Origin: the human T2T-CHM13v2.0 reference genome, Homo sapiens | DNA: 64,000 nucleotides | Direction of reading: 5' to 3' | Assembly (NCBI GenBank): GCA_009914755.4 | Contig: CP068257.2 | Span: 44,512,001 to 44,576,000 of the forward strand | Shown here: one piece after another, positions 55,800 to 57,840 of the stretch | How positions within the stretch are numbered: position 1 is the first letter of the stretch | Layout: each line of letters begins with the position of its first letter | The notes under the pieces: model-generated | Told to the model about the DNA's origin: nothing | Database searches by the model: none | Seen by the model: only the letters and a program-made list of their open reading frames with translations | Made by a program: the position numbers and the translations under genes

Positions 55800-57090
55800 T
55801 CCCTCATGTGCGTTTTGCTGACAATTGTGGCTGTCAGGTAGTTTGTTGATAATAGGGGAGGCTGTGCATTTGTTGGGGCAGCGAGTGGGGAAATCTCTCT
55901 ATCTTCCTCTCAATTTTGCTAAGAACCTAAAACTCCTCTTAAAAAAGTCTTGAAAAAGACAAAAGCACGAAGGAAACCAGAGAATATTTCAAGTTGAATG
56001 AGAATAAAAACATGACATTAGAATTTGTGGGGTGTAGTTAAAGCTTGATGCCCGTGCTCCACAACCACAGGAAATGGACAAACCCTACCAAAGTTATCAA
56101 AAGAGAAGGACACCCCATCTGTAGAAAACAGTCAGAAGATTAGGCAGATGTGGTGGTGCGTGTCTGTTGTCCCAGCTACTCGGAACACTGAGGTGGGAGG
56201 ATTGCTTGAGCCTGGGAGGTCGAGGCTACAGTGAACTGTGGTTGCGCGGCTGTGCTCTAACTTGCGTGACAAAGTGAGACCCTGTCTCAATAAAATACTT
56301 TAATTAATGAAACTGAAACTTTCTGCTCTGCAAAGAATGTCAAGAAAATGAAAAGACAAGTCAGAGACTGGGAGAATATTTTTGAAACGTCCTGCAGCAA
56401 AGTGGTACTTTTTTGAGACAAGGTCTTGCTCTATTGCCCAGGCTGAAGGGCAAGTGGCATGATCACGGCTCACTGCAGCCTCAAATGCCTGGGCTCAAGA
56501 GATCCTCCTGCCTCAGCCTCCCAAGCAGCTGGGATTACAGGCGCGCACACCCACACTCAGTCCCAGAGTGGTCCATTTGTTACAGCTGATGAATCTACAT
56601 GGACACATCGTCACCACCCAAAGCCCACAGTTTACAATGGGGCTCACTCTTGATGCTGCACATTCTCTGGCTTTGGACAAATGTATAATGACCTGTATCC
56701 ACCATCACAGTGTCAGGCCAGAGCAGTTTCGCTACGCCTATAGTCCCAGCTACTCAGGAGGCTGAGGCAGGAGAATGGCGTGAACCCGGGAGGCAGAGCT
56801 TGCAGTGAGCCAAGATCGCGCCACTGCACTCCGGCCTGGGCGAAAGAGCGAGACTCCGTATCAAAAAAAAAGAAAAGGCTGAAGACCTTAACAGACACCG
56901 CACCAAAGAAGATACACAGTTGTTAAATAAGCATATGAAAAGATGTTCCACATCATATGTCATCAGGGGAATGCAGATTAAAACTACCAATATACCTTTT
57001 AGAGTGGCCAAAATCCAGAACACTGCCACCACCAAATGCTGCTGAGGACGTGGAGTAACAGGAACTCATTGTTGGTGGGAATGCAAATTG
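55800..57090 (+). mobile_element. Ancient L1M fragments (3'-end piece 55800-55950; distal ORF2 pieces 56290-56400 and 56880-57090). Alu insertions break them up at 56110-56290 (+, right arm), 56405-56530 (-), 56720-56880 (+) and 57100-57425 (-)
   Basis: Motifs ..gggaaatctctctatcttcctctcaattttgctaagaacctaaaactcctcttaaaaaa.. and ..caccaaagaagatacacagttgttaaataagcatatgaaaagatgttccacatcatatgtcatcaggggaatgcagattaaaact.. recalled as the old mammalian L1 3' region. Confidence 0.6.
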
Positions 57091-57454
57091 GCACAGCCAC
57101 TTTTGTTTGATTTCTTTTTTGTCTTTTTTGAGACGAAGTCTCACTCTGTCTCCCAGGCTGGAGTGCAGTGGCACAATCTCGGCTCACTGCAAGCTCTGCC
57201 TCCCGGGTTCACGCCATTCTCCTGCCTCAGCCTCCCGAGTAGCTGGGACTACAGGCGCCTGCCACCGTGCCCGGCTAATTTTTTTTATTTTTAGTAGAGA
57301 CGGGGTTTCACCGTGTTAGCCAGGATGGTCTTTATCTCCTGACCTTGTGATCCGCCCACCTCGGCCTCCCAAAGTGCTGGGATTACAGGCGTGAGCCACC
57401 GCGCCCGGCCCCTTCAGCCCATTTTTTAACCAGGTTGTTTTATTGTTGGGTTTG

Positions 57455-57840
57455 AAGAGCTCTTTTGGATACTGATCCTTTGTCTTTTTCAAATATATTC
57501 TCCCAGTCTCTGACTTGTCTTTTCATTTTCTTGACATTCTTTGCAGAGCAGAAAGTTTCAGTTTCATTAATTATTTTATTGAGACAGGGTCTCACTTTGT
57601 CACGCAAGTTAAGAGCACAGCCGCGCAACCACAGTTCACTGTAGCCTCGGCCTCCCAGGCTCAAGCAATCCTCCCACCTCAGTGTTCCGAGTAGCTGGGA
57701 CAACGGGCACGCACCACCACACCTGCCTAATCTTCTGACTGTTTTGTACAGATGGGGTTTCACTGTTATCCAGGCTGGTCTCCAACTCCTGAGCCCAAGT
57801 GACCCTCCCACCTTGGCCCCTCAAAGTGCTGGGACTACAG
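57455..57840 (-). mobile_element. Alu element (minus orientation) carrying unusual shared variants. Together with ~110 bp of L1M flank it is the inverted partner of 56118-56395
   Basis: The reverse complement is ~95% identical to 56118-56395, including the non-consensus Alu variants (cagtcagaagattaggcag, cggaacactgagg, gtgaactgtggttgcgcggctgtgctctaacttgcgtgac). Confidence 0.75.

What the first reader, a model, noticed from the sequence alone, without database searches (positions are those of the whole stretch)
56118..57840. Inverted segmental duplication (variant Alu + L1M flank) forming ~280-390 bp arms with ~1 kb spacer between SPATC1L and LSS
56118-56395 (+) and 57455-57840 (read on the - strand) share ~95% identity. 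This includes several non-consensus Alu substitutions and the same ~110-bp adjoining L1M flank. They therefore derive from a local inverted duplication rather than from independent Alu insertions. The ~1 kb spacer itself contains oppositely oriented Alus. Such palindrome-like structures form hairpins or cruciforms and, if transcribed (the LSS 3'UTR or readthrough is nearby), long dsRNA that is a classic ADAR editing/MDA5 substrate. They are also rearrangement-prone.
Basis: seen in the sequence. Interest (0 to 1): 0.5.

Follow-up and report, generated by a model that had tools for sequence, protein, structure and literature searches.

The report
Small inverted Alu/L1 duplication near LSS
A 279-bp piece of old repeat DNA (part of an AluJ plus its L1 flank) was copied in reverse orientation 1.1 kb away during a local DNA rearrangement in an ape or Old World monkey ancestor; it lies between genes, shows no sign of function, and is an ordinary kind of genomic scar.

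Summary
The inverted repeat is real, but its coordinates need correcting. Arm 1 is 56109-56387 (+). Arm 2 is 57487-57761 (-). They differ by 7 substitutions and 2 indels over about 275 bp, and the spacer is 1,099 bp.

The arms share 45 differences from the AluJo consensus, against 3 private differences each. They also share about 90 bp of L1M flank with one mismatch. One arm is therefore a DNA copy of the other, not an independent Alu insertion.

Arm 2 is the source. It has a full AluJ with a target-site duplication, inside a continuous antisense L1M. Arm 1 is the copy. It sits exactly at a junction where that L1M's 3' end is split into two oppositely oriented halves. A second L1 block in the spacer is also flipped, and that flip came after an AluY insertion. 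Divergence of 2.6% suggests an age of roughly 5-25 My.

The repeat is intergenic. It starts about 1.6 kb beyond the canonical LSS poly(A) site and ends about 3.5 kb upstream of the SPATC1L start codon. Cruciform formation is implausible with a 1.1-kb spacer. A roughly 270-bp RNA duplex is predicted only if read-through transcription occurs, and it is barely more stable than an ordinary inverted Alu pair. The verdict is a real but ordinary feature of low interest.

The parts
56109..56387 (+). Arm 1, the COPY. It holds AluJo positions ~104-282, the A-rich tail and ~90 bp of L1M ORF2-derived flank. It lacks the Alu left monomer, a poly(A) tail of its own and a target-site duplication.
57487..57761 (-). 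Arm 2, the duplicated part of the SOURCE. It holds the L1M flank (57487-57580) plus the 3' two-thirds of an AluJ.
57581..57850 (-). Full-length AluJo (positions 13-282) of which arm 2 is a part. It is flanked by ATTATTTTA on both sides (target-site duplication) and by contiguous L1M ORF2 sequence.
57411..57579 (-). L1M ORF2 aa ~1017-1082, antisense. This is the native left flank of the AluJ. The part 57411-57486 continues beyond the arm boundary.
57851..58207 (-). L1M ORF2 aa 901-1019, antisense. This is the native right flank of the AluJ.
56388..56407 (-). 20-bp L1M 3'-end fragment (recalled consensus ~163-181) abutting arm 1. Part of it is the target-site duplication of the next Alu. Its left end is a rearrangement breakpoint.
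   Evidence: (7 of 5000 shuffles)
56408..56560 (-). 5'-truncated AluJ-type right monomer (positions ~144-282) inserted into the L1M 3' end.
56563..56733 (-). L1M 3' end, consensus positions 5-174, antisense (native orientation).
   Evidence: 84%, E = 1e-48
55844..55957 (+). L1M 3' end, consensus positions 182-301 plus A-tail, in SENSE orientation. It is flipped relative to the other half of the same 3' end.
   Evidence: 83%, E = 9e-31
55958..56108 (+). Fragments of an older L1 ORF2 (aa ~269-295 and ~427-445), sense. They are flipped together with 55844-55957. The hits are weak but collinear.
56735..56876 (+). AluY tail half (positions 154-281) plus A-tail. Its 3' flank carries the target-site duplication GGCTGAAG that matches the 5' flank of the AluY head at 57410.
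56877..57105 (+). L1M ORF2 aa 1073-1153 in SENSE orientation. This block is flipped in place. It was contiguous with 57411-57579 before the flip.
   Evidence: one HSP, aa 1046-1153, E = 4e-24, after rejoining
57106..57410 (-). Full-length AluY (94% to consensus). Its head abuts L1M aa ~1082, and its tail abuts a novel junction with aa 1153.
59411..59416 (-). First canonical AATAAA downstream of the LSS stop codon, followed by a GU-rich element. This is the inferred LSS poly(A) site, ~1.6 kb before arm 2 in the direction of transcription.
61369..61485 (-). LSS last coding exon (39/39 aa identical to the recalled C-terminus); stop codon at ~61366-61368.
52368..52559 (-). SPATC1L first coding exon (aa 1-64, 100%).

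Best explanation
Arm 1 (56109-56387) is a DNA-level inverted copy, not a retrotransposed one. It copies a 275-bp stretch lying 1.1 kb away (57487-57761). That stretch contains the 3' two-thirds of an old AluJ plus the adjoining ~90 bp of the antisense L1M element into which the AluJ had inserted.

The copy was laid down at a breakpoint junction during local double-strand-break repair or replication template switching, which also rearranged that L1M. Listed left to right across the window, the L1M blocks run from the element's 3' end towards its 5' end, as expected for an antisense element. Two blocks are flipped in place: 55844-56108 and 56735-57105. Arm 1 sits exactly between the flipped 3'-end half and the unflipped half.

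Junctions show at most 2 bp of microhomology, which favours end joining with a captured or copied fragment.

Timing: at least the second flip happened after an AluY insertion. Arm divergence of 2.6% places the copy roughly 5-25 My ago, in the catarrhine to hominid lineage.

Today it is a neutral relic in intergenic DNA between the LSS poly(A) site and the SPATC1L start.

Shown: the duplication, its direction (arm 2 to arm 1), the split and flipped L1 blocks, and the intergenic position.

Inferred: that the copy and the flips belong to one event, the repair mechanism, the age, and the lack of function.
For: Duplication:
- The alignment is 267/280 (E = 4e-103).
- There are 45 shared derived differences from AluJo against 3 + 3 private ones.
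- The L1 flank is 84/85 identical, while old L1M copies normally differ by 15-30%.

Direction (arm 2 is the source):
- The AluJ is full length.
- It is flanked by ATTATTTTA on both sides.
- L1 ORF2 aa 901-1019 and aa 1017-1082 lie on either side of it in the same antisense orientation.
- Arm 1 lacks the left monomer, and its flanks are unrelated sequence.

Breakpoint location:
- L1M 3'-end consensus positions 5-174 map to 56733-56563 (-), and positions 182-301 map to 55844-55957 (+).
- The 20 bp abutting arm 1 match consensus 163-181 (7 of 5000 shuffles).
- Joined to 55844 and onward, they read through with only a 2-bp insertion.

Second flipped block: rejoining rc(57411-57579) to 56885-57105 gives one ORF2 HSP covering aa 1046-1153 (E = 4e-24). 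The pieces abut the head and the tail of an AluY and share the target-site duplication GGCTGAAG.

Age: 7/274 substitutions, 95% CI 1.0-5.3%. Private changes are balanced between the arms, as expected for neutral drift.

No function signal:
- Rfam finds nothing.
- No paper mentions the locus.
- It is absent from the published table of long near-perfect human inverted duplicates.
Against: - The L1M 3'-end and Alu consensus sequences were supplied from memory. Only the strength of their alignments vouches for them.
- The target-site-duplication matches are short (shuffle p about 0.07 each).
- The left breakpoint of the first flipped block is uncertain by about 20 bp. The collinearity of the older L1 across it rests on weak hits.
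- Nothing shows that the copy and the two flips happened together. They could be separate events.
- Gene conversion between the arms could make the copy look younger than it is.
- No outgroup genome could be reached, so age and order of events are untested.
- Lack of function is an absence of evidence. Expression and editing were not testable.
Confidence: 0.72

Rival explanations
1. One larger fold-back (U-turn) inverted duplication. In this model, the whole of 57106-57761 (AluY, L1M aa 1082-1017, AluJ part) was copied in reverse to give 56109...56876, with 56877-57105 as the unique centre. Later the middle of the left arm was replaced or interrupted by 56388-56733.
For: The two inverted pairs are nested and collinear: 56109-56387 with 57487-57761, and 56735-56876 with 57116-57257. 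Read in the plus orientation, arm 1 followed by the AluY tail and L1 aa 1073-1153 follows the native L1 order. The predicted RNA fold shows both stems nested.
Against: The inner pair is only 90% identical. The AluY tail at 56736-56876 is closer (94.3%) to an unrelated AluY at 24603-24743, and the inner pair shares only 1 derived change, so it need not be a duplicate. The piece between the two left-arm segments (56388-56733) is the L1M's own 3' end in native orientation and position. A later replacement would not put it there. With two inserted pieces, collinear order has a 50% chance.
Confidence: 0.13
2. Gene conversion (non-reciprocal homologous repair) between two pre-existing, anciently related inverted L1M/Alu copies. 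This would have homogenised a ~280-bp tract rather than creating a new copy.
For: L1-derived sequence in sense orientation lies on both sides of arm 1 at some distance. Tract lengths of a few hundred bp are typical of conversion.
Against: The sequence immediately flanking arm 1 is not homologous to the sequence flanking arm 2. The left side is older-L1 ORF2 aa ~427-445 against the AluJ left monomer. The right side is L1M 3'-end consensus 163-181 against L1M ORF2 aa ~1046 onward. Conversion needs homology on both sides of the tract, and both identity boundaries are abrupt.
Confidence: 0.04
3. Independent events: two separate Alu insertions into two L1M copies, or a retrotransposition product (a chimeric read-through transcript, or L1 twin priming) that happens to look like a duplicate.
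For: Alus and L1s are abundant here, with 22 Alus in 64 kb. Twin priming does create inverted L1 segments.
Against: There are 45 shared derived Alu differences and a 99% identical L1 flank. Arm 1 has no poly(A) tail and no target-site duplication. The L1 flips post-date a primate-specific AluY insertion, so they cannot date from the L1M's own insertion. The block order is also wrong for twin priming.
Confidence: 0.01
4. A functional RNA element. In this model, read-through LSS transcripts or an unannotated transcript fold into a ~270-bp near-perfect hairpin. The hairpin would serve as an ADAR1 substrate or MDA5 ligand, a small-RNA precursor, or a buffer between LSS and SPATC1L.
For: Both strands are predicted to pair 268-270 of 279 arm nucleotides (MFE about -1014 to -1057 kcal/mol, z = -50 to -65 against shuffles). 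The longest perfect helix is 77 bp. The repeat lies 1.6-3.3 kb downstream of a poly(A) site, within typical read-through range. Putative immunogenic dsRNAs are reported mostly in UTRs or intergenic regions (PMC12695637).
Against: - It lies outside the canonical LSS mRNA, and read-through RNA is nuclear and short-lived.
- The duplex energy is close to that of an ordinary inverted Alu pair.
- It falls below the >300 bp and >96% criteria and is absent from that catalogue.
- There is no Rfam match and no literature on the locus.
- Private substitutions are balanced between the arms, and there are no compensatory changes to assess.
Confidence: 0.08

Closest known systems
Inverted Alu pairs (IRAlus), the usual ADAR editing substrates
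   Same: Two Alu-containing sequences lie in opposite orientation about 1.1 kb apart. They are predicted to form a long intramolecular duplex if co-transcribed.
   Different: The arms are true paralogues (97% identical, including non-Alu L1 flank) rather than independent Alu insertions at ~70-85%. Only a partial Alu is involved. Co-transcription is unproven, and the site is outside the LSS mRNA.
Long near-perfect inverted duplicated sequences within transcripts (Barak et al. 2020, PMC7006430)
   Same: It is a non-retrotranspositional inverted duplicate with near-perfect complementarity. This is the class argued to be depleted by selection and to be the critical ADAR1/MDA5 targets.
   Different: The arms are 275-279 bp with 95.4% BLAST identity, just under the >300 bp and >96% cut-offs. 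It is apparently not inside a RefSeq transcript, and it is not in their table.
Complex local rearrangements with templated inverted insertions at breakpoints (replication template switching of the FoSTeS/MMBIR type, or multi-break end joining).
   Same: There are several novel junctions within ~1.3 kb (near 55844, 56109, 56388, 56735 and 57106). Blocks are flipped in place, and an inverted copy of nearby sequence sits at a junction.
   Different: Junction microhomology is at most 2 bp where it can be judged, which fits end joining better than microhomology-driven switching. A single-event origin is not demonstrated.
Fragile palindromes and closely spaced inverted Alus (the Lobachev system; PMC10164571)
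   Same: It has high-identity inverted arms of Alu size.
   Different: The spacer is 1,099 bp, against the 12-100 bp or less needed for cruciform-driven fragility. Interaction is expected only in long single-stranded DNA.
Genome-wide 'inverted duplicates' catalogues (PMC5398296)
   Same: It has reverse-complementary arms with a spacer, overlaps repeats and is intergenic. This is an abundant class, from 377,552 to 5,087,596 per genome across the 21 vertebrates surveyed.
   Different: The spacer is slightly above that study's 1,000-nt cap. The arms are much longer and more similar than those of the typical catalogue member.

Membership tests
Segmental duplication (conventional definition) | Duplicated block of at least 1 kb | tested here: not met
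   The arms are 275-279 bp with abrupt boundaries.
Segmental duplication (conventional definition) | At least 90% identity between copies | tested here: met
   95.4% including gaps, 97.4% counting substitutions only.
Local inverted duplication (paralogous arms, not independent repeat insertions) | Arms share derived substitutions and non-repeat-unit flank | tested here: met
   45 shared derived differences against 3 + 3 private ones. The L1 flank is 84/85 identical.
IRAlu ADAR substrate | Oppositely oriented Alu sequences within about 2 kb | tested here: met
   The Alu parts are 56109-56288 (+) and 57581-57761 (-).
IRAlu ADAR substrate | Both arms in one transcript, with clustered A-to-I editing | not testable with these tools
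   No expression or editing data are available. The arms lie 1.6-3.3 kb beyond the inferred LSS poly(A) site.
Long near-perfect transcript dsRNA (Barak et al. criteria) | More than 300 bp and more than 96% identity | tested here: not met
   280-column alignment at 95.4%. Criteria from PMC7006430.
Long near-perfect transcript dsRNA (Barak et al. criteria) | Both arms inside one RefSeq transcript | tested here: inconclusive
   By inference from the poly(A) signal, it lies outside the canonical LSS 3'UTR. It is not among the chr21 entries in their table. The RefSeq annotation itself was not available.
Cruciform-prone palindrome / unstable inverted Alu pair | Spacer of tens of bp or less | tested here: not met
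   The spacer is 1,099 bp. Spacer dependence from PMC10164571.
Cruciform-prone palindrome / unstable inverted Alu pair | Arm identity of at least ~85-94% | tested here: met
   95-97%.
L1 twin-priming inversion | Inversion created at the time of L1 insertion, with the 5' segment inverted next to the sense 3' segment | tested here: not met
   The flipped block was contiguous with its neighbour when a primate AluY inserted. The flipped blocks are 3'-side and internal pieces.
Retrocopy / target-primed insertion | Poly(A) tail and target-site duplication bounding the inserted copy | tested here: not met
   Arm 1 ends in ...TTTGAAA|CGTCC and begins ...GAGAAG|GACACC, with no A-tail and no direct repeat.
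Inversion with inverted duplications at both breakpoints (staggered-break model) | Each duplicated piece has its partner at the opposite end of the inverted segment | tested here: not met
   Arm 1's partner is not at the other end of the flipped block 55844-56108. The junction 57486|57487 is native L1. The test for a short inverted duplicate at the left breakpoint was negative.
Known structured RNA family | Match to an Rfam covariance model | tested here: not met
   No matches at gathering threshold in 50000-64000.

The most novel reading that the evidence does not exclude
Two novel readings remain open.

(a) All five novel junctions within ~1.3 kb (near 55844, 56109, 56388, 56735 and 57106) arose in a single miniature 'shatter-and-stitch' or multi-template-switch event fixed in the hominoid lineage.

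(b) The resulting 270-bp near-perfect hairpin is transcribed in LSS read-through (downstream-of-gene) RNA. There it would form one of the few near-perfect human dsRNAs that depend on ADAR1 editing, or it would mediate a polymorphic flip of the 1.1-kb spacer.
Probability: 0.07. Interest if true: 0.4.

Novelty: new member of a known kind. Interest (0 to 1): 0.14.

Why it matters
As it stands, it matters little. It is one more small inverted duplicate in repeat-rich intergenic DNA, a class that is very abundant in vertebrate genomes.

It has two modest points of value:
- It is a clean worked example of how repeat 'fossils' can be used to reconstruct the source, direction and relative timing of a sub-kilobase rearrangement from a single genome. 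The fossils here are the L1 coordinates, the Alu target-site duplications and the shared substitutions.
- It lies just below the thresholds used to define dangerous near-perfect self-dsRNA, a short way past the LSS poly(A) site. If read-through transcription were substantial, it would be a candidate ADAR1-dependent duplex.

Neither point changes current understanding.

Tried and rejected
(1) I used the window's near-full-length L1 (44.1-48.1 kb) as a nucleotide reference for the L1M fragments. It is a younger L1P type, and only Alu hits came back.

(2) I looked for a second copy of the L1M 3' end elsewhere in the window, to check contiguity without relying on memory. None exists.

(3) I tested for a ~30-40 bp inverted duplication at the left breakpoint (55700-55830 against 56040-56112). 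It is not supported: 1934 of 2000 shuffles scored as well. A ~20-bp inverted duplicate of 56388-56407 just left of 55844 is also not supported. The similarity there is only what two diverged copies of one consensus would show.

(4) I considered whether the second inverted pair (56735-56876 and 57116-57257, 90%) is a duplication of the same age. This is undecidable. There are 11 differences (6 at CpG positions) and 1 shared change, and the tail half is closer to an unrelated AluY at 24.6 kb.

(5) I looked for independent copies of the locus in other individuals, other primates or transcript assemblies:
- four exact-ORF look-ups;
- four exact-pattern scans of metagenome and prokaryote-genome contigs with the junction sequence and an arm 39-mer.
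All were empty.

(6) Literature:
- no paper links LSS or SPATC1L with an inverted repeat or editing;
- the supplement of the 2025 immunogenic-dsRNA study is not held;
- the Barak et al. table has no entry at this locus.

(7) Rfam gave no family match.

(8) I rejected the staggered-break inversion model with arm 1 and arm 2 as its flanking duplicates. The junction 57486|57487 is native, continuous L1.
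Full report
1. THE OBSERVATION

A direct scan and a gapped alignment both find the inverted repeat. Arm 1 is 56109-56387 on the plus strand. It pairs with 57761-57487 on the minus strand.
- The alignment is 267/280 (E = 4e-103).
- There are 7 substitutions in 274 aligned positions (97.4%), plus a 1-bp and a 5-bp indel.
- The spacer is 1,099 bp.

Its second arm (57455-57840) is too long at both ends. The stretch 57762-57850 is the left monomer of the Alu and 57455-57486 is further L1 sequence. 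Neither has a counterpart next to arm 1.

Among 199 dispersed (non-tandem) repeat pairs of at least 120 bp in the window, this pair has the highest identity. The median is 73% and the 95th percentile is 85%.

2. IT IS A TRUE DUPLICATE

I used Alu consensus sequences recalled from memory as probes. With these, the window holds 22 Alu copies.
- Arm 1 carries AluJo positions ~104-282.
- Arm 2's Alu covers positions 13-282.
- Each is only 77-79% identical to the consensus.

In a three-way alignment, the arms share 45 differences from the consensus, against 3 private differences each. Beyond the Alu's A-rich tail, the arms share the adjoining L1-derived flank. The 85 bp from 56303 to 56387 carry one mismatch. 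Independent Alu insertions cannot explain this.

3. WHICH ARM IS THE SOURCE

It matches chain 8uw3_A across 1-1275 at 2929.7 bits. With tblastn it maps the L1 fragments as follows:
- 57851-58207 (-) is aa 901-1019.
- 57411-57559 (-) is aa ~1017-1082.

The full AluJ at 57581-57850 therefore sits in one continuous antisense L1M. ATTATTTTA lies on both sides of it as its target-site duplication. Arm 2 is the original.

Arm 1 lacks the Alu left monomer. It has no poly(A) tail and no target-site duplication of its own. Its flanks are unrelated to arm 2's flanks. It is a DNA-level copy, not a retrocopy. It is not a gene-conversion tract either, because there is no flanking homology.

4. WHAT SURROUNDS THE COPY

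An L1M 3'-end consensus, again recalled from memory, aligns strongly in two pieces:
- Positions 5-174 map to 56733-56563 on the minus strand (84%, E = 1e-48).
- Positions 182-301 map to 55844-55957 on the plus strand (83%, E = 9e-31).

One L1 3' end is therefore split near position 181/182, with its halves in opposite orientations. The 20 bp touching arm 1's right edge (56388-56407) match consensus 163-181 (7 of 5000 shuffles). When joined to 55844 and onward, they read straight through with a 2-bp insertion. Arm 1 thus sits exactly at a breakpoint junction.

The block 55844-56108 is flipped. It contains the 3'-end half plus weak but collinear hits to an older L1, at aa 269-295 and 427-445.

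A second block is also flipped. L1M aa 1073-1153 lies in sense orientation at 56877-57105. Rejoining rc(57411-57579) to 56885-57105 gives one ORF2 alignment covering aa 1046-1153 (E = 4e-24), running straight across the join. The two pieces abut the head (57410) and the tail (56876) of an AluY and share GGCTGAAG. They were therefore adjacent when that AluY inserted, and the flip is younger than a primate-specific AluY. This excludes L1 twin priming.

Listed left to right, the L1M blocks are:
- 3'-end 182-301 (flipped);
- 3'-end 174-5;
- aa 1073-1153 (flipped);
- aa 1082-1017;
- aa 1019-901.

The rank order is that of an antisense element, with two blocks flipped in place. ORF2 aa ~1154-1275 and the start of the 3'UTR are missing.

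5. MECHANISM AND AGE

There are five novel junctions within about 1.3 kb, near 55844, 56109, 56388, 56735 and 57106. Where it can be judged, junction microhomology is at most 2 bp. This favours end joining with a copied or captured fragment over microhomology-driven switching. I cannot show that all junctions arose together.

A staggered-break model with the two arms as flanking duplicates fails, because 57486|57487 is native L1. A small inverted duplicate at the left breakpoint is also not supported.

The alternative of one larger fold-back duplication is weakened by two results:
- The inner inverted pair (56735-56876 and 57116-57257, 90%) shares only one derived change.
- Its tail half is closer (94.3%) to an unrelated AluY at 24.6 kb.

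Arm divergence is 2.6% (95% CI 1.0-5.3%). At 1.0-1.2e-9 substitutions per site per year, this gives about 11-13 My. The interval is roughly 2-27 My across the 1.0-2.2e-9 rates, and wider still if slower rates are assumed. Private changes are evenly split between the arms, as expected for neutral drift. Gene conversion could bias this estimate towards younger ages.

6. GENOMIC CONTEXT

The gene context is confirmed with recalled protein probes:
- The LSS C-terminal exon is at 61485-61369 (-), 39/39 identical.
- The SPATC1L exons are at 52559-52368, 36487-36110, 29883-29728 and 29523-29197 (-).

The LSS stop codon is at ~61366. The first canonical AATAAA on that strand is at 59416-59411, followed by a GU-rich stretch. 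This implies a ~1.97-kb 3'UTR ending near 59,390.

The inverted repeat therefore starts about 1.6 kb beyond the LSS mRNA end. It ends about 3.5 kb upstream of the SPATC1L start codon, so it is intergenic.

7. CONSEQUENCES

DNA level. In the yeast Alu inverted-repeat system, lengthening the spacer from 12 to 100 bp lowers recombination about 300-fold. A 1.5-kb spacer lowers gross rearrangements about 31-fold. Only in long single-stranded DNA do widely spaced repeats still anneal (PMC10164571). Cruciform extrusion here is therefore implausible. The longest perfect identity stretch is 77 bp.

RNA level. If either strand were transcribed through both arms, the minimum-energy fold pairs 268-270 of arm 1's 279 nt with arm 2 and nests the AluY pair inside. 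However, the arm duplex (-528 kcal/mol) is only slightly more stable than an ordinary inverted AluS pair in this window (-477).

The repeat falls just under the >300 bp and >96% criteria for long near-perfect transcript dsRNA (PMC7006430). It is not among that study's chr21 entries. Rfam has no match, and no paper addresses the locus. Expression and editing could not be tested.

8. COMPARISON AND VERDICT

The repeat behaves like an inverted Alu pair, but it is a true paralogous inverted duplicate.
- It fails the size criterion for a segmental duplication.
- It fails the spacer criterion for a fragile palindrome.
- It fails the length and identity criteria for the 'dangerous dsRNA' class.

It belongs to the very abundant class of small inverted duplicates (PMC5398296). 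Most probably it is a by-product of local break repair.

Its functional extrapolations are generic and mostly unsupported. Attempts to reach other genomes for dating all failed.

Interest is low. The feature is a new instance of a known kind.

9. CAVEATS ON BASIS

The ORF2p probe was validated against the PDB. The Alu and L1M 3'-end consensus sequences, and the LSS and SPATC1L probes, came from memory. They are supported only by the strength of their alignments to the window. Mutation rates, the conventional segmental-duplication threshold and the behaviour of read-through RNA are from general knowledge.

Noticed in passing
window 37053-40798: Large minisatellite with a 39-bp unit repeated about 96 times (93% matches; also reads as a 118-bp period). 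It lies between SPATC1L coding exons (36110-36487 and 52368-52559), so it is intronic. It is likely to be length-polymorphic.
   Followed up: no
window 53139-53734 and 54185-55047: Two GC-rich tandem arrays just upstream of the SPATC1L first coding exon. One has units of 17/35/105 bp and spans about 600 bp. The other has a 53-bp unit repeated 16 times at 95% matches. The region is 60-70% GC but has a low CpG observed/expected ratio (0.2-0.4).
   Followed up: no
window 62750-63996 (runs to the window end): Tandem array with a 117-bp unit, at least 10.5 copies, 94% matches. It lies upstream of the LSS last coding exon and is presumably intronic. It produces long spurious ORFs on both strands.
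   Followed up: no
window 362-800: Degenerate telomere-like array, TTAGGGTCAGGG repeated about 37 times (also 24- and 36-bp periods). This is an interstitial or subtelomeric-type TTAGGG-related repeat.
   Followed up: no
window 10770-11887: A polypyrimidine (CCCT/CT-rich) low-complexity tract of about 1.1 kb. It is the kind of mirror-like purine/pyrimidine run that can adopt triplex DNA.
   Followed up: no
window 44101-48117: Near-full-length L1 of a younger (L1P-type) family in sense orientation. ORF2 is 52-77% identical to human L1 ORF2p across aa 25-1275. It is interrupted by an AluS at 47696-47975 and followed by three more Alus up to about 49133.
   Followed up: partly
window 56736-56876 vs 24603-24743: The truncated AluY tail in the spacer is 94.3% identical to an unrelated AluY 32 kb away. 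That is higher than its 90% match to its inverted neighbour. Young-Alu inverted pairs can therefore mimic local duplications.
   Followed up: yes
window 6171-7363: Tandem array with a 50-bp unit repeated about 24 times at 88% matches.
   Followed up: no
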